Assembly: GCA_965204505.1 (NCBI GenBank)
Contig: CBDBFB010000004.1
Coordinates: 107,449 to 171,448 of the forward strand
Direction of reading: 5' to 3'
Source of the DNA: an uncultured Candidatus Binatia bacterium
GTDB lineage: Bacteria > Desulfobacterota > Binatia > UBA9968 > JAJDTQ01
Length of the DNA: 64,000 nt
The notes under the pieces were generated by a model. It searched no databases. It saw nothing but the letters and a program-made list of their open reading frames with translations, and was not told where the DNA came from. The position numbers were made by a program, and so were the translations under genes. Below, in pieces: positions 12,230 to 59,946 of this stretch; the stretch's first letter is position 1; each line of letters begins with the position of its first letter.

Positions 12230-12335
12230 GCAGCCTGTCCCGAGCAAGGACCCTCCGGGCATCGCGTCCTCGCGTCGCTCGGCCCGCTCGCCCTCCGGGG
12301 CAGCCGGGTGTCCCGTCCCGTGAAGGAGAACCGCC

Positions 12336-13251
12336 ATGCACTACGGTCCGTCCCCAGCCTCCGCGGTCGCCGCGGCGCTTGCAGCGCGCGCCGAAGAGGT
12401 CTGCCAGCGCTACCTCCCCCACGGCCGCCGCCAGGGCCGCTACTGGGTCGCGGGCGACATCGACGGCGCCCGCGGCCGCTCCCTCTTCGTCCGCCTCCAC
12501 GGCCCGGGCGCGCCCGGGAAGTGGACCGACGCGGCCGTGGGCAGCCACGGCGACCTGCTCGACATCATCCGCCACCGCACGGGCGCGCCGACGCTCCGCG
12601 CGGCGCTTGCCGAAGCGCGCGCCTTCCTCGCCCTGCCGGCTTCGCCGGCCAAGGGCGATGCAGGCGACTACGACGCCGCCGAAGCGGCGCGGCGCCTGTG
12701 GCGGGGATGCCGCGCCATCGACGGCACCCACGCGGAGAAGTACCTGCTCGCCCGGGGGCTCGCGCGCTGCCGGTTCCCGGCGCTGCGCTTCCACCCCGAG
12801 CTTCGCTACCGCGAAGGCTCCTCCGTCATCCGCCTCCCGGCGCTAGTCGCCGCCGTGACCGGCGACGACGGCGCCGTCTTCGGCGTGCACCGCACCTGGC
12901 TCGATCCCCGCCGTCCGGCCAAGGCCGGCGTCGCCTCGCCCCGAAAGGCCCTCGGCGACATCCGCGGCCGTGCCGTGCGCTTCGGCATGCCCGCCGGCGA
13001 TGTCGCTACGCTCCTCGTCGGCGAGGGCATCGAGACCGTGCTGTCGCTGGTCACCGCCGTGCCCGACATCTCCGCGGCCGCAGCCCTCTCCGCCGGCAGT
13101 CTCGGCTCCTTCTCGCCCCCGCCCGCCTGCCGCCGCCTCGTCATCGCCCGCGACAACGACTTCGAGGGCGCATGGGCCGCCGAACGCCTCGCCCGGCGCT
13201 GCGCGCGGGCGGGCGTCGAGGCCGCGGTCATCGTCCCCCAGGGCGGAGACT
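12336..13251 (+). CDS. toprim-domain DNA primase, exon 1 (interrupted by an antisense group II intron)
   Basis: Toprim-like body ...LLVGEGIETVLS...ARDNDFEGAWAAE... The frame runs to ...VIVPQGGD, after which the sequence becomes intron. Confidence 0.7.
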
Positions 13252-32174: not shown

Positions 32175-32999
32175 TTGCCAGCGGAAGCGCTCGACTGGCT
32201 TGTACCGTCCATGCTTGCTCAAGAATCGTACGCAACCAGTAGGCTCGATCGGCTGTTCATCGCCGAACTGCGGGCGTTTCACTCCAACTTCGACGTGGCC
32301 CCAGTGCCTGTCGAGCAGGAATTGAGGGCTGGAGCGATTGGCTGGATCGCGACCTTCGCACCGAAGGCGATCAGCCTCCGCGGGAAGGAAGAGCTTCGGA
32401 AAGTTTCAACCGCGGCCCGAGACCGAGCCGACTTCAGGCATTTCGGCTGGTACCGAGTTCCCTATCTGGATGTGGCCCAGTATTCTTTGGACGGTGACAA
32501 CTCGAACTTGTCGACCGTGATCGACAATATAGATCACCACAACAGTTCCTTGCGCTCCTCCCTACATGGACCATTGGCATTGATTGCCCCGAGGCTCAGC
32601 CTTGACGACAATAACCTTTCCGGCCGGATGGAAAGCTGCTTCAAATCCAGTTCCATGTATAACGATAGCCTAATGTGCATATTTGTGGCCCTCAACGATA
32701 ACCAAGAACGAAAGCTGGCCTTGATTAGGAAATGGCGGACGATGAACAGCCTCAGCCCACAAGACATCAAGCTTCTGGATCTCATCCTTACCGGCGGACT
32801 CATATCGAACGCGTTGATTGCGGACGGGTTTTCTGCGGTTCTTCGATACATTTTTTGCCGTTTTCTGGATCCCGAAGTATCCAAAGCCCTGCCCGGACAG
32901 CAACTCGATTTACTCCCCGACAGCGAGGAGTGCCCAGTTTGGCAAGAAATGGCAGCTCACCCCTTGGTAGGCTCGTTGGTTTCGGCGAAAAGGACGTGA
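32175..32999 (+). CDS. hypothetical protein immediately downstream of the RM enzyme (candidate accessory or partner)
   Basis: Starts 4 nt after the RM stop. 274 aa at ~50% GC. It ends within a 21-bp tandem duplication tttcggcgaaaaggacgtgac x2 at 32980-33021. Confidence 0.5.
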   Translation: MPAEALDWLVPSMLAQESYATSRLDRLFIAELRAFHSNFDVAPVPVEQELRAGAIGWIATFAPKAISLRGKEELRKVSTAARDRADFRHFGWYRVPYLDVAQYSLDGDNSNLSTVIDNIDHHNSSLRSSLHGPLALIAPRLSLDDNNLSGRMESCFKSSSMYNDSLMCIFVALNDNQERKLALIRKWRTMNSLSPQDIKLLDLILTGGLISNALIADGFSAVLRYIFCRFLDPEVSKALPGQQLDLLPDSEECPVWQEMAAHPLVGSLVSAKRT

Positions 33000-33281
33000 C
33001 TTTCGGCGAAAAGGACGTGACAAGGGCAGGTTTTACAGTACATACCGATCCCTTTGGAGTCACGGAGACGCTGTCCGCCTCAAGCCTTGCGGCAATGTCA
33101 GGAAGGGGCGAGTGTCAAAGTGTTGACCTTTGCGTTGGTTGCTGAAGTCGGCGACCAGCATTAACGTTCGCCCACGCGATTGGACCGTTGGGCAGTCTGA
33201 AGGAATTGGCCTGAACCCTCCGACCAAAGGTTTCTGCGGCTGACTGGCCACCGCCGACCCTCCGGCATGCCGTTGATTCAA

Positions 33282-48517: not shown

Positions 48518-49244
48518 GGTGGTTGATCAAGGCCTTGTGCGCTGCTGCTGGAGTGTTCGGAACTATTTTCGGGTCGAGCCGGGTCCACTCAGCAGATCCT
48601 TCCATCAGCGTAAAAGCTTCCGGCGCCACCACCATCACTAGGGGACGGCGGCGTCGGCGCGCTGCCAGCACGGCAACATGCACCTGCCTCCGCTCCACCG
48701 CTTCTCCGCTCCGGGCGGGCTCGAACAGGGGCCGCACGTCGTGCGTGCAGCTTACCAGCAACGCGCACGGGTGGGCGCGGTACCATGAAGACCCAGGCTC
48801 TTCTGGACATCCGGCCTGCGCCTCGTCCTCCATCGCCGCGGGTCGCAGCGTCCGGGATCGGGCCAGCGCCAGCTCTACCGCGGCCACGTCTGCCGCCCAT
48901 GCCGGCATGGTCGGTCTGTGAGCCCAGTTCTCAAGGAAATACTCGAAGAAGCTCTTGGCGTCCGGATACCGCTGGTAGGTCTCGGGCGGGTGCGCCGACG
49001 CGTACTCACGTGTGATCGTCGAAAACCCTTGACCCAAGAGCCCGGCCGTCCGCTCGAAAGATTGGCGGAGTTTGCCCATCCGCTTCTTGTAGGAGAACTC
49101 CGCCTCTAGCCGAAGACGCCCGAGGTCCATGCCGGCAAGCTCCGGGTCCTGAGTTGCGGACTCCAACTCCTCGGTCCCGAAGATGAATGCTGCGCTCGTC
49201 ATGTGGCGCAGCAGCATCGTCTGCCTGTCAATGAGTCGTTGCAT
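48456..49244 (-). CDS. DUF2063-like partner protein (MbnC/TglI/HvfC-like) of the DUF692 enzyme
   Basis: 262 aa, immediately downstream of DUF692 with a 17-nt overlap. Size and position match the conserved DUF692-DUF2063 pairing. Confidence 0.55.
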   Translation of the reverse strand: MQRLIDRQTMLLRHMTSAAFIFGTEELESATQDPELAGMDLGRLRLEAEFSYKKRMGKLRQSFERTAGLLGQGFSTITREYASAHPPETYQRYPDAKSFFEYFLENWAHRPTMPAWAADVAAVELALARSRTLRPAAMEDEAQAGCPEEPGSSWYRAHPCALLVSCTHDVRPLFEPARSGEAVERRQVHVAVLAARRRRRPLVMVVAPEAFTLMEGSAEWTRLDPKIVPNTPAAAHKALINHLEEQGLVLVRTHDAHERTHR

Positions 49245-50115
49245 GGGTTACCGTCGAGGCTCTCGTGGCGGCGGCCCTTGCCACCTGCTCCCGCAGGCGC
49301 GCTACGTCCGCCAGAAGCTCGTCGCCCTTCTCGTAGTCGTTGTCCCGCTCCAGGATGATGGTCCGCGGCTGCTGCCGCCGGAGCGCGTAGCCCAGGATGT
49401 CCAGCGCCTGCTCCGGCACCTGCCGGCTGTGGTTGTCCGCGTAGAACGGCGTATCCAGATACGGCCGGCGAACCAACGGTCCGCCGGCCGCGTGCACTCC
49501 CGTAACTACCCCCTCCGGCATCGCGTCTAGAAACCCACGCGGGTCAACCCCGTGGTTGTGGGAGTTCACGAACAGGTTCTCCACGTCCAGCAGCATCTCC
49601 ATCCCTGTCTCTCGGAACAGCAGGTTGAAAAACTCCGAGTCGTCCATCTCGCTGTCCGGGAAGTCGAACACGTAGGAGATGTTCTCCAGCGAGAACGGCA
49701 CCGGCAGGCGGGACTGCACCTGCTCGATCTTCGGGATCAGTATGTCCGCGACGGCGCGAGTCTTGGGCACCGGTAGCAGGTTGGCCAAGTCGATGTCCGG
49801 AACCTTGGTCCAGGCCAGATGCTCGCTGTAGGACGGTACCTTAAGGTCCTCCACGGCCTCGCACACGCCGTCCAGGTACTCGTCGTCCAGAGGCACGTCG
49901 GTGCCGATGGAAAGACCCACCCCATGCAGCACCAGCGGTATCCTGTCCACCAGGTTCCGGATCGCCCGACGGGTATAGTCGCCGCCCCGGATGTAGTGGT
50001 CGACGGTCACCTCCAGCACGTCGAAACGGTGCAGGTTGGCCAGCGTCCACCTAGCGATGGGAACCCGGAAGCCGATCCCGATAAGGGGTGTTGCATTTGA
50101 GGACGAAAGGCTCAT
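49228..50115 (-). CDS. DUF692 (UPF0276; MbnB/TglH/HvfB-family) TIM-barrel non-heme iron enzyme
   Basis: ...IGIGFRVP...LEVTVDHY...PLVLHGVGLSIGTDVPLDDEYL...SEHLAW...LLPVP...LENISYVFDF...MLLDVENLFVNSHNHGVDP...VHAAGG matches the DUF692 consensus throughout. Confidence 0.85.
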   Translation of the reverse strand: MSLSSSNATPLIGIGFRVPIARWTLANLHRFDVLEVTVDHYIRGGDYTRRAIRNLVDRIPLVLHGVGLSIGTDVPLDDEYLDGVCEAVEDLKVPSYSEHLAWTKVPDIDLANLLPVPKTRAVADILIPKIEQVQSRLPVPFSLENISYVFDFPDSEMDDSEFFNLLFRETGMEMLLDVENLFVNSHNHGVDPRGFLDAMPEGVVTGVHAAGGPLVRRPYLDTPFYADNHSRQVPEQALDILGYALRRQQPRTIILERDNDYEKGDELLADVARLREQVARAAATRASTVTHATTH

Positions 50116-50121
50116 TTTTGT

Positions 50122-50658
50122 TTAGTTCGCGTTTAGTTCTTCTCTAAGCTCGTCCATGGTCTTGCATTCCTCACTCTCATCACGACGGTCCTTTCCATCC
50201 AATATTGCTTGAATGATAGTGACTTCCGGAGGGGCACCGCTAAAGAAACCACCTAGGACAGTCCCACTAGCAGTACCGTAAACTTGCGCTTCGCAGGTTG
50301 CTGTTGCTTCGCTCAAGGCCATAGCGTCGCCACGTTTTCCATCCTCTGTGTCGATGTGATTTTCTGCGGTATCCGCTGCTGCTTGGTTATCGGCGATGGT
50401 CTCGGCGATTGCATCGTTGAGTCCTTCGTCCTGGGTATCCTCAGCGTCGTCGCATCCACAAGACTCGCAAGCGTCACAGCTATCACATCCGCAGTCACAC
50501 CCGCACCCGCACCCGCACCCATGGACCTCCAGGTCAAGGTCGTCGTTTCGAGGGTCGAGCACCCATGGTATGACTATGGAACCGCGCTGAAGGGCGTCAC
50601 GCTGAAGGGCGTCACGCTGAAGGGCGTCACGCTGAAGGGCGTCATTATCCAACTGCAT
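50122..50658 (-). CDS. Cys-Gly-repeat precursor-peptide candidate (RiPP substrate)
   Basis: GGAAAGGGG RBS. Leader with 4x DALQR. Core HGCGCGCGCDCGCDSCDACESCGCDD with 10 Cys, then an acidic ~100-aa tail. It lies directly upstream of the DUF692/DUF2063 genes. Confidence 0.6.
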   Translation of the reverse strand: MQLDNDALQRDALQRDALQRDALQRGSIVIPWVLDPRNDDLDLEVHGCGCGCGCDCGCDSCDACESCGCDDAEDTQDEGLNDAIAETIADNQAAADTAENHIDTEDGKRGDAMALSEATATCEAQVYGTASGTVLGGFFSGAPPEVTIIQAILDGKDRRDESEECKTMDELREELNAN

Positions 50659-50709
50659 CTTGGCACCCCTTTCCTGGGTACCAAATAAAAAAAGGTACCC
50701 ATGTCAATT

Positions 50710-50814
50710 GGGTACCCGCTTCTTGGGTACCCGCTTCTTGGGTACCCGCTTCTTGGGTACCCGCTTCTTGGGTACCCGCTTCTTGGGTACCCGCTTCTTG
50801 GGTACCCGCTTCTT
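50710..50814. promoter_or_regulatory. 7 perfect tandem copies of the 15-bp unit gggtacccgcttctt (palindromic GGGTACCC core), 50-160 bp upstream of the precursor gene
   Basis: Exact repeats at 50710, 50725, 50740, 50755, 50770, 50785 and 50800. Two more GGTACC sites lie at 50677 and 50694. Confidence 0.75.
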
Positions 50815-50823
50815 GCAAGACTA

Positions 50824-51110
50824 TCATGCACAATTCAGGGCTGTCGTCAAGGGCACGATCATCATGGTGCAGGGCGGTTTGATTCTTCGAGGTTTTTTGA
50901 ACAATCCCTTGCGCACTTTCAGAACAAATTCGCCTTGTGGCAGAGGGGCGGGCGAGGTCTGAGGCCCGGTCCTCTGGAGTTGTCGTTCGTAAGCCTCCTG
51001 TGGGGTGGAGCCTGCAAGGGCGGAGTGAGGCCGTTGGGCATTGTACAACTCAAGCCTTTAACATCCTCAAAACCGGCAAGAACAAGATCCAGTACGAGTT
51101 TCATCCTGGT
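50824..51110 (-). pseudogene. rve-family (IS3/IS481-like) transposase C-terminal remnant
   Basis: ...MYNAQRPHSALAGSTPQEAYERQ is the conserved integrase-core tail. The upstream part is frameshifted and truncated. Confidence 0.6.
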
Positions 51111-51563
51111 TCGGTCGCGAACTCAGTGTCCACGGGGTGGTGGAGAAGGGGCTGGGGGTTGTGCGATGGACGTGGCGAGGGGACTTGCAGGAGCGAGCTC
51201 TGGAAGTGCCGCTATGGATGTTCGACCATCTGACCTGTCTGTCTGTGCGTCTTCGGAAGCGTCCGCAAGTCGATCTGGCAGCGCTTGATGCACCGAAGCG
51301 GAAACCCGTGCGCGACGCGGGGGCTTAGTCGCGAAAGTAACCGGAGATTGCACGCGGGGTAGCGATGCGGTGAAGTGACGGTGGCTGGGGGAGTCGAGGC
51401 CGGTTGCTCCCACTGGTGTGCACAGGCACCCGTACTGAAGCATGGCCCGAACCACGATCGGCTTCAGTCACTGATGGCGCGGCTTGGCCGCGACCTCGTT
51501 CGAGAGATTGAGATTTTGCCGTGTGGTTCCTCCCCGGCACACCACAAGGCGGGAGGACTTGGC

Positions 51564-52976
51564 ATGCCACGGAAGAGCAAGAGGACGGAGCGTCTCAGGG
51601 TGGTGAATCCGAACTGCGCGGGGATCGACATCGGCAAGGACCGTCACTACGTGGCGGTGGATCCGGAGCGCTGTGCAGAGCCGGTCCGGTCGTTTGATGG
51701 CTTCACACGGGATCTGAAAGCGATGGCGGCATGGCTGAGATCGTGTGGGGTGAAGAAGGTGGCGATGGAATCGACCTCGGTGTACTGGATCCCGGTGTAC
51801 GAGGTGCTGGAGCGCGCGGGCTTCGAGGTGATGCTGGTGCCGCCGCGGATGACGAAGCAAATTGCCGGGCGCAAGAGCGACGTACTCGATTGCCAGTGGA
51901 TCTGGCAGTTGCTGTCCTACGGCCTTCTGCGGGGCGCGTTCCGGCCCGGGGATGCGATCTGCCCGCTCCGCTCCTACGTGCGCCAGACGAAGCGGCTGAT
52001 CGAGGACCGCGCGCGTTGCGTGCAGCACATGCAGAAGGCTCTGACCGAGATGAACATCCGGCTGGACTCGGTGCTCGCCGAGATCATGGGACAGACCGGA
52101 CAGAAGATCCTGCGGGCGATCATAGGCGGCGAGCGCGACGCGCAACGTCTGGCGTCGTTCCGGGACCGGCGGGTCAAGGCCAGCGGTGACACGATCGCCG
52201 CAAGCCTGGAGGGCACCTGGCGCGAGGAGCACCTGTTCGCGCTGGAGCAGGCCATGCAGCGCTACGACTTCCTCGAACAGCAGATCGAGGACTGCCAGGC
52301 GCAGATCGCGGCGCAGATCGAGGGCCTGACGCCGCCAGGCGGCAGCCCATCCGGGGACGAAGGCGCTGGTGGCGGATCGGCCGGCGAAGGCTGGAAGACG
52401 CTGTCGGGCTCCAGCGGCAGGAAGCCCGCGGCCGGCGACAGGGCCTTGACCATGGCGCTGCACCAGATGATGGGCGTCAACCTCACTGCGATCCCGGCCG
52501 TCGGCATCGGAACCGTCCTGACCATCGCCTCGGAGATCGGTCCGGACTTCTCCGCCTTCCCTTCCGCCAAGCACTTCTGCTCCTGGATGGGGGTGGCGCC
52601 GGGGACCCGGATCAGCGGCGGCAAGCCATTGCCGGGCCGAGCGCCCAAGGTAGTCAACCCGGTAGGGCAGGCGCTTCGGATGGCTGCCGTGGCAGCGCGA
52701 AGGAGCCAGACCTTCATCGGCGCCAAACACCGCGCCCGTCTCGCCCGCAAGGACGCGGCCGTCGCCATCACCGCAACCGCGCGCGAGCTCGCCTGCCTCA
52801 TCTACCTGATGGTGACGCGGGGCGAGGAATACGTCGAGAAGGGCATGGACGCCTATGAGAAGCGGCGCATCGATCGCACCTTCGCCAACCTCAACCGAAA
52901 GGCCCGTACTCTCGGATACCGGCTCGTCCAGGCCGTCGTCCAAGAAGTACCCAACGGCGCTCCAGAAGCAGCCTAG
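51564..52976 (+). CDS. IS110-family transposase (IS1111-like subgroup, 470 aa)
   Basis: GGGAGGA RBS. ...NCAGIDIGKDRHYVAV...VAMESTSVYW... DEDD_Tnp N-domain. C-terminal ...GVAPGTRISGGK... transposase_20-like domain. Confidence 0.85.
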   Translation: MPRKSKRTERLRVVNPNCAGIDIGKDRHYVAVDPERCAEPVRSFDGFTRDLKAMAAWLRSCGVKKVAMESTSVYWIPVYEVLERAGFEVMLVPPRMTKQIAGRKSDVLDCQWIWQLLSYGLLRGAFRPGDAICPLRSYVRQTKRLIEDRARCVQHMQKALTEMNIRLDSVLAEIMGQTGQKILRAIIGGERDAQRLASFRDRRVKASGDTIAASLEGTWREEHLFALEQAMQRYDFLEQQIEDCQAQIAAQIEGLTPPGGSPSGDEGAGGGSAGEGWKTLSGSSGRKPAAGDRALTMALHQMMGVNLTAIPAVGIGTVLTIASEIGPDFSAFPSAKHFCSWMGVAPGTRISGGKPLPGRAPKVVNPVGQALRMAAVAARRSQTFIGAKHRARLARKDAAVAITATARELACLIYLMVTRGEEYVEKGMDAYEKRRIDRTFANLNRKARTLGYRLVQAVVQEVPNGAPEAA

Positions 52977-52984
52977 TTACTCGA

Positions 52985-54965
52985 GTGCGCCGTGCAAGGC
53001 GCCATCCCTTAGCGGGTTGCGAGACCCGCCCGGCAACTGTCGCTCCAGCCGGTAGCAGTCGGAGCGGACGATGGAGGTAACGACATGGTTTGAAGCACTC
53101 CGATGAAACGGGCCGCCTTGGGCGGCTCAGCGACCATGCGGGCCGCAACGCGAGTGAACGCCGAGCAGGCCTCGAAACTGGCAACGCGGAAGCCGACCCG
53201 CCTCGAGTACGGGAAAGGCTGCCATCGGCCGGGAAGCGAGCGACACACGCACCGGCCGGTTCCGCCGGGGTATTGGCGGCGGCACGCATGGAAGAAGGGG
53301 ATGGACGCAACACGGGAAGCCCCGGCGGTGGCGTAGCACGCGCCAACCGACAACCCGCGAGGGATGGGTCGGGCCGTTCGGGGTGGCGGAGAGGTCCGTA
53401 GTACCGCGGAAGCCGGGTAATGCCGGTGGAGGGAAGGGGCCTTGGTTCGAGAGCAGCGTTTGGAAGGAGGAAGGGACATGGGGACTGGCGAGAGCCTATC
53501 CGACCCGGAAAAGGTCCGGAGACTCCAGACGGCGCTACATGCGAAAGCGAAGGAGGCCCCGGGCTTTCGGTTCTACTCACTGAGCGACAAGGTGTGGCGC
53601 GCCGACGTGATGGCGGTCGCCTGGCAGGAGGTCCGCCGCAATGGCGGAGCCGCCGGGGTGGACGGTCAGACGGTAGCGGACATCGAGGCGCAAGGCGTGG
53701 AGCGGTGGCTTGGGGAACTGAGGCGGGACCTGAAGGCGGGAACCTATCGGCCCGAGGCGGTCCGGCAGGTTCTCATACCAAAGAAGCAGCGTGGGAAGTT
53801 GCGGCCCCTGGGCATTCCCTGCATACGGGACAGGGTGGCGCAGACGGCGGCGATGCTAGTGCTGTCGCCGATCTTCGAGGCCGACCTGCAACCGGAACAG
53901 TATGCCTACAGGCTGGGCCGGAGCGCGAATGATGCTGTCAGGCGCGTACACCGGCTGTTGAACACGGGCCACCGCGAGGTGGTGGACGCGGATCTAACGG
54001 ACTACTTCGGCCAGATTCCGCACGCCGAACTGCTCAAGTCCGTCGCCCGGCGCGTGAGCGACGGGCGGATGCTGGGCTGGGTTAAGGCGTGGCTTGAGAT
54101 GGCGGTCGAAGAAGACGACGGCAAGGGCGGCAAACGCCGTACGAACCGGGCGCGTCGCGAGAGGAAGGGAACCCCTCAAGGTTCTCCGATCTCCCCGTTG
54201 CTCTCCAACATCTACATGCGCCGCTTCATACTGGGCTGGAAGGTGCTGGGCCATGCCCGGCGCTTCAAGGCGGAAGTCGTCAACTATGCCGACGACCTGG
54301 TTGTGCTCGGCAAATCGTCGTCAGCGGAAATGCTGGCGGTGGTCGAGAACCTGATGGAACGGCTGAAACTGACGGTCAATGCCGAGAAGACCCGATGCTG
54401 CCGGGCGCCGGAGGACTCGTTTGAGTTCCTTGGCTATCGGATTGGACGCAACTACCGCCCGCACGGGAAGGGGAGCTACATCGGCACCCGGCCCAGCAAG
54501 GCGAGCGTCCAGAGCATCTGCCGCAGGATTAGCGAACTAACGGAACCCCGCTATGGGCTCCTGGACCAGGAGGTCGTGGCCGAACGGCTCAATCGACTGA
54601 TGCTCGGGTGGTCAAAGTACTTCATCCTGGGCCAGGTCGAGCCGGCCTATGCCGCGATCGACAGGCACGCTATCAAGCGGCTGCTCCAGTGGCGGCGTCG
54701 CAAGCACAAGGTGAGAGCCCGTAATTATGTGCAATACGGGTACGAGCAGCTCTGGACTGAGCACGGTCTCATCCGCCTTGCACCGCGAGCGACACGCTTT
54801 CCGTGGGCGAAGGCATGATCTCGTCCGAGAGCCGTGTGCGGGAAAACCGCACGCACGGTTCGATGAGCGGGGACTGGAAACGCGGCCAAGGGAGCCGGAC
54901 TGAGGCCCGGAGCGAAAGCGACGGACAAGCCACCGGACCCTAAAGCTGGCGCGCCAGTCCTCGAC
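52985..54965 (+). mobile_element. group II intron D (~2 kb) inserted 8 nt after the IS110-family transposase stop
   Basis: 5' GUGCGCCGUGCAAGG at 52985. Canonical domain V GAGCCGUGUGCGGGAAAACCGCACGCACGGUUC at 54828-54860. Putative 3' end ...GCGCGCCAGUCCUCGAC at about 54965. The 3'-end coordinate is uncertain by about 5 nt. Confidence 0.75.
53478..54818 (+). CDS. group II intron reverse transcriptase/maturase (no En domain)
   Basis: GGAGGA RBS. RT motifs ...LIPKKQRGKLRPLGIPCIRDRVAQ..., ...GTPQGSPISPLLSNIYM..., ...VVNYADDLVVLG..., X domain ...LMLGWSKYF... The stop lies just before domain V. Confidence 0.85.
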   Translation: MGTGESLSDPEKVRRLQTALHAKAKEAPGFRFYSLSDKVWRADVMAVAWQEVRRNGGAAGVDGQTVADIEAQGVERWLGELRRDLKAGTYRPEAVRQVLIPKKQRGKLRPLGIPCIRDRVAQTAAMLVLSPIFEADLQPEQYAYRLGRSANDAVRRVHRLLNTGHREVVDADLTDYFGQIPHAELLKSVARRVSDGRMLGWVKAWLEMAVEEDDGKGGKRRTNRARRERKGTPQGSPISPLLSNIYMRRFILGWKVLGHARRFKAEVVNYADDLVVLGKSSSAEMLAVVENLMERLKLTVNAEKTRCCRAPEDSFEFLGYRIGRNYRPHGKGSYIGTRPSKASVQSICRRISELTEPRYGLLDQEVVAERLNRLMLGWSKYFILGQVEPAYAAIDRHAIKRLLQWRRRKHKVRARNYVQYGYEQLWTEHGLIRLAPRATRFPWAKA

Positions 54966-59481: not shown

Positions 59482-59946
59482 TCAAGGGAAGAAGACCAGC
59501 TTCACGAGCAAGGCAAGAACGGCAGGGGCGAAAGCCAGCTTCAGAACCGCCATATCGCGCTTCAGCACGTTGACGTCTTCCTTCAAGCTGACGATGTCTC
59601 CCTTCATCTCCGCCTTGAACTCGGCGACGTCCTGCTTCGTCTCCGCCTTGAACTCCGCGACGTCCTGCTTCATCTCCGTCCTGAATTCGGCGAAGTCCTG
59701 CTTCATCTCCGTCCTGAATTCGGTGAAGTCCTGCCTGATCTCGGCTTTGAACTCGGCGAAGTCTTGTTGGCTGGCGGCCCTGAACTCGGCGAAGTCCTGT
59801 TGGCTGGCGGCCTTGAATTCCGCTAGGTCTTGCCTTGTAGCGAGGTTTTCGGTCATCGGGATCACGCCCGCGGCGGCCCTGGCCTTCTCATCAGGAGCAC
59901 CGGCTGCAACCAGGGCATCGTAGACTTCCGTAACAATCAAGCTCAT
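59482..59946 (-). CDS. DUF1640-like coiled-coil membrane-anchored protein with 7 tandem 11-aa repeats
   Basis: N-terminus MSLIVTEVYDALVAAGAPDEKARAAAG. Repeats QQDFAEFRAAS / KQDVAEFKAET. C-terminal hydrophobic anchor LAFAPAVLALLVKLVFF. Confidence 0.6.
   Translation of the reverse strand: MSLIVTEVYDALVAAGAPDEKARAAAGVIPMTENLATRQDLAEFKAASQQDFAEFRAASQQDFAEFKAEIRQDFTEFRTEMKQDFAEFRTEMKQDVAEFKAETKQDVAEFKAEMKGDIVSLKEDVNVLKRDMAVLKLAFAPAVLALLVKLVFFP

What the first reader, a model, noticed from the sequence alone, without database searches (positions are those of the whole stretch)
50676..50814. Array of seven identical 15-bp repeats with a palindromic GGGTACCC core directly upstream of the precursor gene
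gggtacccgcttctt occurs 7 times head-to-tail (50710-50814), plus two extra GGTACC sites at 50677 and 50694. All lie between the precursor start codon (50658) and a transposase remnant. The 15-bp phasing (1.5 helical turns) places successive palindromes on alternating DNA faces. This looks like a multimeric regulator-binding array, possibly metal-responsive, or an amplified operator. No regulator gene is visible inside the cluster, so control may come from a trans-acting factor. The repeat copy number may also be phase-variable.
Basis: seen in the sequence. Interest (0 to 1): 0.6.

Follow-up and report, generated by a model that had tools for sequence, protein, structure and literature searches.

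The report
Amplified hairpin repeats in mRNA leader
The seven identical 15-bp repeats are real, but they most likely lie in the transcribed leader of a peptide-precursor gene, as a recent tandem amplification of a conserved hairpin-and-terminator module, and are probably not a DNA docking array for a regulator.

Summary
GGGTACCCGCTTCTT occurs seven times, perfectly and head to tail, at 50710-50814. Further GGTACC sites lie at 50677 and 50694, and a degenerate GGCACC lies at 50662.

Three orthologous loci carry the same motif chain in front of the same Cys-rich precursor of an MNIO (MbnB/TglH-type) RiPP cluster, but with only 3-4 octamers. Two are Candidatus Binatia genomes and one is a TARA scaffold.

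Window and TARA scaffold share a sigma-70-like promoter (TTGACR-N16-CATSAT) that ends 8-9 bp upstream of the array. The array would therefore be about +1 to +105 of the mRNA.

The conserved plan has two parts. Octamers 1 and 2 form a 9-bp hairpin followed by a U-run, which looks like an intrinsic terminator. Octamers 3 and 4 form a hairpin that encloses the Shine-Dalgarno sequence.

Sequence variants (GGGTGCCC; TGGTACCC paired with GGGTGCCA; a G-C to A-U closing pair) keep RNA pairing on the sense strand but break the DNA palindromes.

The window amplified the loop-plus-arm unit from 2 to 8 copies upstream of the U-run, giving four tandem hairpins. No Rfam family matches, and no regulator gene or second motif site was found.

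Verdict: a new variant of a leader attenuator, of moderate interest. The function is inferred, not shown.

The parts
50823..50850 (-). Sigma-70-like promoter: -35 TTGACG (50850-50845), 16-nt spacer, -10 CATGAT (50828-50823). The predicted transcription start is about 50817-50815, at the first base of the array.
   Evidence: It is the only promoter-like site in 50400-51400. L018 has the equivalent TTGACA-16-CATCAT at 435-462, ending 16 nt before its first octamer. BLAST homology between window and L018 starts inside this spacer, at 50836. This is a consensus match only; no transcription start data exist.
50710..50814 (-). Seven perfect 15-nt units. They read AAGAAGCGGGTACCC on the sense (-) strand: a 7-nt purine-rich loop plus the self-complementary octamer GGGUACCC.
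   Evidence: The RNA minimum-free-energy fold pairs neighbouring octamers into consecutive 8-bp hairpins (z = -8.7). Each hairpin is about -14.4 kcal/mol.
50693..50717 (-). Terminator-like hairpin. The last array octamer pairs with the eighth octamer (GGGTACC, 50700-50694): 9 pairs with a 7-nt loop, AATTGAC.
   Evidence: The terminator scan calls it, with tail TTTTTTATTT. The same element is called in L018 (478-500 plus T10) and in L013 (770-791 plus T8).
50683..50693 (-). U-tract (TTTTTTTATTT on the sense strand) directly after the hairpin.
   Evidence: T10 in L018 and T8 in L013 occupy the same position. It is absent in L004.
50660..50684 (-). Shine-Dalgarno hairpin. The ninth octamer (UGGUACCC) pairs with the tenth (GGGUGCCA), enclosing AGGAAAG. 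The 3' arm GGGGU is the likely SD, 6 nt before the AUG.
   Evidence: fold; -13.6 kcal/mol on the sense strand, -8.3 on the antisense strand. It is conserved in L013, L018 and L004. The outermost pair is U-A here and G-C in L013, a compensatory change.
50122..50658 (-). Precursor gene (178 aa): leader ...PWVLDPRNDDLDLEVHG followed by CGCGCGCDCGCDSCDACESCGCD.
   Evidence: It is directly followed by an MbnB/TglH/ChrH-family enzyme gene, 49228-50115 (E 3.4e-71).
50585..50644 (-). A second perfect 15-bp x4 tandem repeat, inside the precursor gene, encoding (DALQR)x4. It shows the same kind of recent 15-bp duplication at this locus.
   Evidence: 100% matches, score 120. The insertion is absent from all orthologs.
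50824..51048 (-). Mechanical ORF whose first 16 residues weakly match the C-terminus of an rve_3 integrase core (IS remnant). Its 3' part overlaps the promoter and is probably not coding.
   Evidence: (E 0.0012, below the cut-off).

Best explanation
The array is a recent, lineage-specific tandem amplification of one module of a conserved cis-acting RNA leader. The amplification most likely arose by replication slippage.

Transcription of the precursor gene is predicted to start 8-9 bp upstream of the array, so the seven units are the first ~105 nt of the mRNA. Each unit is a 7-nt purine-rich loop plus the self-complementary octamer GGGUACCC, and neighbouring octamers pair.

In the ancestral four-octamer form (L018, L013), octamers 1:2 make a 9-bp GC-rich hairpin followed by U8-U10, which is an intrinsic-terminator signature. 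Octamers 3:4 make a hairpin that holds the Shine-Dalgarno sequence. In the window, eight octamers precede the U-run and fold as four tandem hairpins. The last of these is the terminator, and the SD hairpin follows.

The leader is therefore expected to lower or gate precursor expression by early termination and SD occlusion. Its 5'-terminal hairpins may also protect read-through mRNA.

What is shown: the repeats, their conservation and variable number in orthologs, the hairpin plus U-run signature, and the sense-strand-specific pairing. What is inferred: the transcription start, actual termination, any antitermination signal, and any effect of the six extra units.
For: Orthologous leaders upstream of homologous precursors carry the same motif chain:
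- L004: aGGTACCCcgggagcgGGGTACCCcaggacggaGGTACCaagATG.
- L013: AAGCGGGTGCCCGGAAGCGGGTGCCC-T8-GGGTACCCAGGAAAAGGGGGTACCCAGATG.
- L018: GGAGCGGGTACCCGAGGAGCGGGTACCC-T10-GGGTACCCTAGGAAAAGGGGGTACAGAGATG.

The promoter-like site is called independently at the equivalent place in the window and in L018, and DNA homology begins there.

A terminator-like hairpin plus T-run is called at the same position in the window, L018 and L013.

The minimum-free-energy fold of the window leader is five hairpins at -85.7 kcal/mol, z = -8.7, with 0 of 200 shuffles as good. L018 gives z = -4.05.

RNAalifold on the three 4-octamer leaders recovers both hairpins. Two pairs show compensatory changes: the closing pair G-C to A-U, and the outer SD-hairpin pair G-C to U-A.

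The TGCC variants fold well only on the sense strand: L013 terminator -16.9 against -9.7 kcal/mol antisense, and window SD hairpin -13.6 against -8.3.

The motif chain is confined to these four loci within 1.08 Mb of fetched DNA. The more distant precursor homologs have unrelated upstream regions.

A second perfect 15-bp x4 repeat lies 65 bp away in the coding region and is absent from orthologs, which shows ongoing tandem duplication at this locus.
Against: - There are no transcription start, termination or expression data, and the organism is an uncultured Binatia MAG.
- The promoter is only a consensus match. L013 and L004 do not give the same promoter call.
- Only four lineages are available, so covariation rests on 2 pairs plus G.U-compatible changes, which is not statistically strong. 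The folds of L013 (z = -2.19) and L004 (z = -1.25) are not exceptional.
- A strong terminator directly after the promoter needs an antitermination mechanism. None was identified, and the alternative 2:3 pairing has low equilibrium probability (0.004-0.06).
- L004 lacks the U-run, so termination is not universal.
- Perfect palindromes fit DNA recognition equally well.
- The six extra units are not conserved, so they may add nothing.
Confidence: 0.55

Rival explanations
1. DNA operator array. Each GGGTACCC palindrome binds a dimeric trans-acting regulator. The chain of sites from +10 to the start codon acts as a cooperative roadblock or repressor platform, and the window has an amplified operator.
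For: There are perfect 8-bp palindromes in 9-10 copies. Sites are conserved in orthologs. L004 has a divergent HTH_3 (XRE-type) gene 258 bp upstream of its precursor. A precedent from general knowledge is the MetJ tandem 8-bp palindromic met-boxes.
Against: - The sites lie downstream of the predicted promoter rather than over it.
- Spacing varies from 14 to 18 bp between lineages.
- The variants GGGTGCCC (two in L013), TGGTACCC and GGGTGCCA are not palindromes but still pair as RNA.
- Covariation occurs outside the octamer, at the closing pair G-C to A-U.
- The orientation-specific T-run is unexplained by this model.
- No HTH_3 homolog or other regulator is present in the window, or next to the L013 and L018 precursors.
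- No second motif site occurs elsewhere.
Confidence: 0.15
2. Copy-number switch. Slippage changes the number of 15-nt units. Nascent octamers pair with their nearest free neighbour, so the parity of the copies upstream of the U-run decides the outcome. With an even number the terminator and SD hairpins form (OFF). With an odd number the last octamer is left to pair across the U-run, which frees the SD (ON).
For: The units are perfect, as expected for a slippage-prone array. Copy number differs among relatives. In equilibrium modelling with 3 or more upstream copies, the SD-hairpin probability alternates between 0.99 (even) and 0.52-0.67 (odd), and the terminator probability between about 0.6-0.7 and about 0.41-0.47. 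Each hairpin is about -14 kcal/mol, so re-pairing should be slow relative to transcription (inference).
Against: This is purely a model. There are no population data on copy number. The predicted equilibrium effect is modest. 15-nt units are far longer than those of known contingency repeats. The orthologs have a fixed even number (2) upstream of the U-run.
Confidence: 0.1
3. The extra copies are an assembly artefact or a neutral, functionless VNTR, and the control region works as the 2-copy form does.
For: The extra units are not conserved. A second perfect 15-bp repeat lies nearby. The source reads could not be inspected.
Against: Collapse, not expansion, is the usual short-read artefact (general knowledge). 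Relatives come from long-read assemblies with chromosome-size contigs. Both repeats keep the reading frame or the hairpin register. Neutrality of the extra copies is compatible with the best explanation and is partly included in it.
Confidence: 0.12
4. The promoter-proximal terminated transcript is itself a small RNA: about 50 nt in orthologs and about 135 nt here, with purine-rich ARN-like loops, a terminator hairpin and a U-tail, as in Hfq-type sRNAs. The precursor would be expressed only by read-through.
For: The element has a promoter, a hairpin and a U-run. AAGAAG and AGGAGC loops resemble (ARN)n motifs (sequence; general knowledge). There is a weak sub-threshold Rfam hit to an Hfq-binding sRNA in L018 (E 0.61).
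Against: The Rfam hit is below threshold and is driven by the terminator. There is no independent conservation away from the precursor gene. L004 lacks the terminator.
Confidence: 0.05

Closest known systems
Intrinsic-terminator leader attenuators (expression platforms of the trp, pyrBI, bgl/sac and riboswitch type)
   Same: The element sits between the promoter and the start codon. It has a GC-rich hairpin directly followed by a U-run, a second hairpin over the SD, and four segments that can in principle pair 1:2 and 3:4, or 2:3.
   Different: All four segments are the same self-complementary octamer, so any copy can pair with any other. The terminator is the 1:2 pair, not the 3:4 pair. No leader peptide, aptamer or known protein-binding motif was recognised, and there is no Rfam match. 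The first module is tandemly amplified to eight copies.
Tandem operator arrays and iterons (for example MetJ met-boxes, plasmid iterons)
   Same: Short palindromic or direct repeats occur in several adjacent copies near a gene start, and copy number differs between loci.
   Different: The position is downstream of the predicted promoter. Spacing is variable. Natural variants break the palindrome. No cognate regulator and no regulon-wide motif were found.
Phase-variable simple sequence repeats in promoters or 5' regions (contingency loci of Neisseria and Haemophilus)
   Same: Perfect head-to-tail repeats lie in a control region, and copy number differs between related genomes.
   Different: The unit is 15 nt rather than 1-7 nt. 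No within-population variation has been shown. The proposed effect would act through RNA hairpin register, not promoter spacing or reading frame.
5'-terminal stem-loop mRNA stabilisers (ompA-type)
   Same: Stable hairpins begin within about 10 nt of the predicted 5' end.
   Different: That function needs only one hairpin. Here the last hairpin carries a terminator U-run.
Multi-hairpin protein-sponge RNAs (CsrB/RsmZ)
   Same: A series of similar short hairpins with purine-rich loops.
   Different: The array loops read AAGAAGC and lack the GGA core. Only the SD-hairpin loop has AGGA. The element is a leader, not a separate gene.

Membership tests
Intrinsic (Rho-independent) terminator | GC-rich stem-loop immediately followed by a U-rich tract on the transcribed strand | tested here: met
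   Window 50717-50693 (-): 9 pairs, tail TTTTTTATTT. L018 478-500 plus T10. L013 770-791 plus T8. Not present in L004.
Intrinsic (Rho-independent) terminator | RNA polymerase actually releases the transcript at the U-tract | not testable with these tools
   This needs in vitro transcription or Term-seq.
Transcription attenuator / leader riboregulator | The terminator lies between the promoter and the regulated gene's start codon | tested here: inconclusive
   A promoter-like site is called upstream of the array in the window and at the equivalent place in L018, with homology starting there. L013 and L004 give no equivalent call. There are no transcription start data.
Transcription attenuator / leader riboregulator | A mutually exclusive antiterminator structure and a signal that selects it | tested here: inconclusive
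   The 2:3 pairing across the U-run is possible, at -11 to -15.5 kcal/mol. It has an equilibrium probability of 0.004-0.06. No effector was identified.
Conserved structured RNA (covariation-supported) | Base pairs are kept through compensatory or wobble changes across homologs | tested here: inconclusive
   Of 21 pairs, 2 show double changes, and several G.U-compatible single changes occur, in 3 aligned sequences. There is a sense/antisense energy asymmetry. The sequences are too few for statistics.
Known Rfam family | Score at or above a family's gathering threshold | tested here: not met
   The best hit is a miRNA hairpin model at 34 bits against a 70-bit threshold. Nothing is relevant.
DNA operator / iteron array | Sites overlap or flank the promoter hexamers, or show fixed helical phasing | tested here: not met
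   All octamers are downstream of the -10. Centre-to-centre spacing is 14, 15, 16, 17 or 18 bp in different lineages.
DNA operator / iteron array | The palindrome is conserved as a palindrome in orthologs | tested here: not met
   GGGTGCCC occurs twice in L013. TGGTACCC and GGGTGCCA occur in the window. GGTACCCC and GGGGTACC form the arms in L004.
DNA operator / iteron array | A cognate regulator gene nearby, or the same motif at other operons | tested here: not met
   No regulator domain is present in the cluster or flanks. The L004 HTH_3 gene has no homolog in the window. No other motif chain occurs in 64 kb plus about 1 Mb of loci. The whole source genome was not available.
Phase-variable repeat (contingency locus) | Perfect tandem repeats in a control region | tested here: met
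   7.2 copies at 100% identity.
Phase-variable repeat (contingency locus) | Copy number heterogeneous within a population and linked to ON/OFF expression | not testable with these tools
   Only between-species differences were seen. No reads are available.
CsrA/RsmA-binding hairpin array | GGA motif in the loops of the repeated hairpins | tested here: not met
   The array loops are AAGAAGC. GGA is present only in the SD-hairpin loop.

The most novel reading that the evidence does not exclude
The leader is a register or parity switch. All pairing segments are the same self-complementary octamer, and the nascent RNA pairs them in order of synthesis. Gaining or losing one 15-nt unit by slippage would then flip the leader between two states. 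In one, the terminator and the occluded-SD hairpin form. In the other, there is read-through with a free SD. This would be a heritable, reversible ON/OFF switch for a RiPP precursor that works through RNA folding register, not through promoter spacing or reading frame.
Probability: 0.1. Interest if true: 0.75.

Novelty: new variant of a known kind. Interest (0 to 1): 0.4.

Why it matters
If the reading is right, expression of a Cys-rich precursor of an uncharacterised MNIO (MbnB/TglH-type) peptide pathway in the uncultured class Binatia is gated by a promoter-proximal terminator and an SD hairpin. Both are built from one repeated self-complementary octamer. That design can be amplified or deleted by simple slippage or recombination between copies, and 3, 4 and 10 copies are seen in relatives.

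This gives a concrete, testable cis-element for heterologous expression of these clusters: removing the leader should raise precursor yield. It is also a natural example of how tandem duplication remodels an attenuator.

Searching for a DNA-binding regulator would probably be the wrong experiment to do first.

Tried and rejected
- An exact search for GGGTACCCGCTTCTTGGGTACCC in genome contigs found nothing. The source genome is not among the species representatives.
- Exact-protein look-ups of the window's precursor, its MNIO enzyme and P0001 found no contig. The cluster listing gave no accession. The source assembly and its reads therefore could not be examined.
- The metagenome scan with GGTRCCMAGATGCAGYT was too unspecific.
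- A viral-contig scan for AGCGGGTRCCC-N(4-12)-GGGTRCCC gave 13 unrelated hits: ordinary terminators, coding repeats and phage palindromes.
- BLAST of the leader against plasmids found no match.
- Rfam on the window leader and on L018 gave only sub-threshold hairpin hits.
- A covariance model of the leader, searched over the window plus 22 loci, found no further instance apart from the training sequences, a weak match in L004 and the array itself.
- Eight further loci with more distant precursor homologs (after MFS genes) have unrelated upstream regions. Other MNIO loci of Binatia have different upstream genes and no such leader.
- A literature search for GGGTACCC returned only KpnI cloning primers. 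The MNIO landscape paper does not mention this precursor type.
- The mechanical ORFs running through the array, (GYPLL)x7 and others, have no real family match. One sub-threshold Pentapeptide hit is a by-product of the 5-residue periodicity. They were rejected as genes.
- The TTGACA inside the window's terminator loop (50709-50704) was considered as a -35 element and rejected. No acceptable -10 follows it, it was not called by the promoter scan, and it is absent from the loops of L018 and L013.

Full report
**Observation.** GGGTACCCGCTTCTT occurs seven times without a mismatch, head to tail, at 50710-50814. Tandem Repeats Finder reports 50708-50815, period 15, 7.2 copies, 100% matches and score 216. 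None of 100 dinucleotide-preserving shuffles gives as many near-matches. GGTACC is three-fold over-represented in the window (24 against 8.09 +/- 2.96), and 9 of the 24 sites lie in 50677-50806. These include the extra sites at 50677 and 50694. A degenerate tenth copy, GGCACC, lies at 50662-50667, just before the start codon at 50658.

**Context.** The downstream gene on the - strand (50122-50658) encodes a 178-aa protein with the motif DLDLEVHGCGCGCGCDCGCD.... It is followed by:
- an MbnB/TglH/ChrH-family (MNIO) enzyme (E 3.4e-71);
- a partner protein;
- an ABC exporter;
- an HlyD-type protein;
- a TauD-type oxygenase;
- a short-chain dehydrogenase;
- an S9 peptidase.

No regulator gene is present. 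Upstream lie three mobile-element features: a weak rve_3 remnant (only the first 16 residues of ORF 50824-51048, below Pfam's cut-off), an IS110 transposase and a group II intron reverse transcriptase. The closest relatives of the enzyme come from Candidatus Binatia MAGs, so the window is very probably from that class.

**Orthologs.** Homologous precursors were found in three other lineages:
- L004/L007, Binatia chromosome OX638375.1;
- L013, Binatia chromosome OZ243984.1;
- L018, a TARA scaffold reached through the precursor protein search.

All three carry the same motif chain directly upstream of the start codon. On the sense strand they read:
- window: (AAGAAGC-GGGTACCC)x7 AATTGACAT GGGTACC T7AT3 GGTACCC AGGAAAGG GGTGCC AAG ATG
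- L018: AAGGAGC GGGTACCC GAGGAGC GGGTACCC T10 GGGTACCC TAGGAAAAGG GGGTACA GAG ATG
- L013: TTTAAGC GGGTGCCC GGAAGC GGGTGCCC T8 GGGTACCC AGGAAAAGG GGGTACCC AG ATG
- L004: A GGTACCC CGGGAGCG GGGTACCC CAGGACGGA GGTACC AAG ATG

The unit RRGMRGC-GGGTRCCC is therefore ancestral. It is present twice in L018 and L013, and in each of them as a perfect tandem duplicate. The window has it seven times plus an eighth, diverged copy. L004 looks like a deletion between octamers 2 and 3 that removed the T-run. Octamer counts are 10, 4, 4 and 3.

More distant members of the precursor family were also examined. Twenty-seven were found and eight loci were inspected. They have unrelated upstream regions. A covariance model of the leader finds no further copy.

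**Position relative to the promoter.** The consensus scan finds a single sigma-70-like site in 50400-51400: TTGACG, 16 nt, CATGAT at 50850-50823 on the - strand. The same scan on L018 finds a single site, TTGACA-16-CATCAT at 435-462, at the equivalent position. DNA homology between the two loci begins inside this spacer (GAATTGTGCATSATAGTCT) and not before it. The -10 hexamer ends 8-9 bp before the first unit. The array is therefore predicted to be about +1 to +105 of the transcript, not an upstream or promoter-overlapping element. This is a consensus-based inference. L013 and L004 do not give the same call.

**RNA features.**
- The terminator scan calls a 9-pair hairpin followed by TTTTTTATTT at 50717-50693 (-). 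It calls the equivalent element in L018 (T10) and in L013 (T8). The T-run exists only on the sense strand.
- The predicted fold of the window leader is five consecutive hairpins: octamers 1:2, 3:4, 5:6, 7:8 followed by the U-run, and 9:10. Its energy is -85.7 kcal/mol against -52.8 +/- 3.8 for shuffles, z = -8.7.
- The last hairpin encloses AGGAAAG, and its 3' arm GGGGU sits 6 nt before the AUG, where L004 has a canonical GGAGGU. It therefore occludes the likely Shine-Dalgarno sequence.

**RNA or DNA?** Several variants separate the two readings.
- L013 has GGGTGCCC twice, and the window's tenth copy is GGGTGCC. As DNA these are no longer palindromes. As sense-strand RNA they pair through G.U.
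- The L013 terminator folds at -16.9 kcal/mol on the sense strand and -9.7 on the antisense strand. The window SD hairpin gives -13.6 against -8.3.
- RNAalifold on the three four-octamer leaders recovers both hairpins and shows two compensatory pairs. The closing pair of hairpin 1 is A-U in the window and G-C in L018 and L013. The outer pair of the SD hairpin is U-A (TGGTACCC with GGGTGCCA) in the window and G-C in L013.
- In L004 the arms are GGTACCCCG and CGGGGTACC. They are shifted relative to the palindrome centre but still complementary.
- Spacing between octamers ranges from 14 to 18 bp.

These points favour selection on inter-octamer RNA pairing over selection on each octamer as a protein-binding palindrome. 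With four lineages the support is suggestive, not statistical.

**Mechanism, inferred.** The ancestral leader resembles an attenuator. Hairpin 1:2 plus the U-run would terminate early, and hairpin 3:4 would mask the SD. The alternative 2:3 pairing across the U-run (-11 to -15.5 kcal/mol) would relieve both, but it has low equilibrium probability. An unidentified signal would therefore be required, or the terminator is simply leaky. The 5'-terminal hairpins could also stabilise read-through mRNA; this rests on general knowledge of 5' stem-loops and was not tested here.

**The amplification.** The window's six extra units are identical and are not conserved in relatives. A second perfect 15-bp x4 repeat lies 65 bp away inside the gene, encodes (DALQR)x4, and is absent from all orthologs. 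Recent slippage-type duplication at this locus is therefore the simplest origin. The extra hairpins may be neutral.

**A more novel possibility.** Modelling leaders with 0-9 units shows an effect of parity. With 3 or more upstream copies, even numbers give SD-hairpin probabilities of about 0.99 and odd numbers give 0.52-0.67. Terminator probabilities run at about 0.6-0.7 for even numbers and about 0.41-0.47 for odd numbers. Each hairpin is worth about -14 kcal/mol, so co-transcriptional pairing order could make this difference larger in vivo. That would make the array a copy-number (parity) switch. I rate this at about 0.1, because no population data exist.

It is not excluded. The palindromes are perfect, and L004 has a divergent HTH_3 gene. 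Against it:
- that gene has no homolog in the window;
- L013 and L018 have no regulator upstream;
- the sites are downstream of the predicted promoter;
- the non-palindromic variants and the T-run are unexplained by the model.

**Comparison with known systems.** The element works most like an intrinsic-terminator leader attenuator, and it meets the terminator's sequence definition in three of four lineages. It matches no Rfam family. It differs from described attenuators in that all its pairing segments are copies of one self-complementary octamer, and in its tandem amplification. It fails the tested defining features of operator arrays and of CsrA-type hairpin arrays. It shares only the perfect-repeat feature with contingency loci.

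**Verdict.** The element is a new variant of a known kind, of moderate interest (0.4).

Noticed in passing
window 50585-50644 (- strand coding): A second perfect 15-bp x4 tandem repeat lies inside the precursor gene. It encodes (DALQR)x4 in the leader peptide. The insertion is absent from all orthologs.
   Followed up: partly
window 50122-50658; L140-L147, L018, L019: The precursor family (PW.LD....DLDLE[VI]HGCGCGC..., acidic C-terminal part) has no Pfam match, and 27 homologs were found. Many homologs are not next to an MNIO gene. Instead they follow two MFS transporter genes and precede a ~150-aa membrane protein with a WW(N/D)...WWR motif. L001/L005 has that membrane protein in the place of the precursor.
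   Followed up: partly
L014 1175-1210: A distant homologous precursor, in an Alphaproteobacteria MAG, is preceded by a different tandem self-complementary repeat (CTTCACGGGGCC x2). It folds as an 8-bp hairpin about 30 nt before the start codon and has no U-run. The design is analogous but the sequence differs.
   Followed up: partly
window 50824-54818: Mobile elements are stacked just upstream of the promoter: a weak rve_3 remnant, an IS110-family transposase (51375-52976) and a group II intron RT/maturase (53442-54818). The L013 precursor is likewise preceded by an IS transposase C-terminus (L013 53-454). L001 and L004 have a GpA_ATPase (terminase-like) gene upstream.
   Followed up: no
L149 ~2830-2930, L154 ~12540-12640, L158 ~12270-12420 (viral contigs): Several copies of the 12-14-bp palindrome (A)GCGGGTACCCGC(T) are scattered at irregular spacing in high-GC viral contigs. 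The context is unrelated; they may be repressor sites or terminators.
   Followed up: no
window 59602-59835 and 32980-33021: There is a 33-bp x6 repeat (83% matches; also read as 99-bp x2.4) and a perfect 21-bp x2 repeat. Neither was examined.
   Followed up: no
L004 4195-4290; L013 ~990-1060: The (GC)n-encoding core of the precursor is itself a 6/12-bp tandem repeat of very different length in each ortholog: 4 Cys-Gly pairs in the window and about 10-12 in L004 and L013. The core evolves by repeat expansion too.
   Followed up: no
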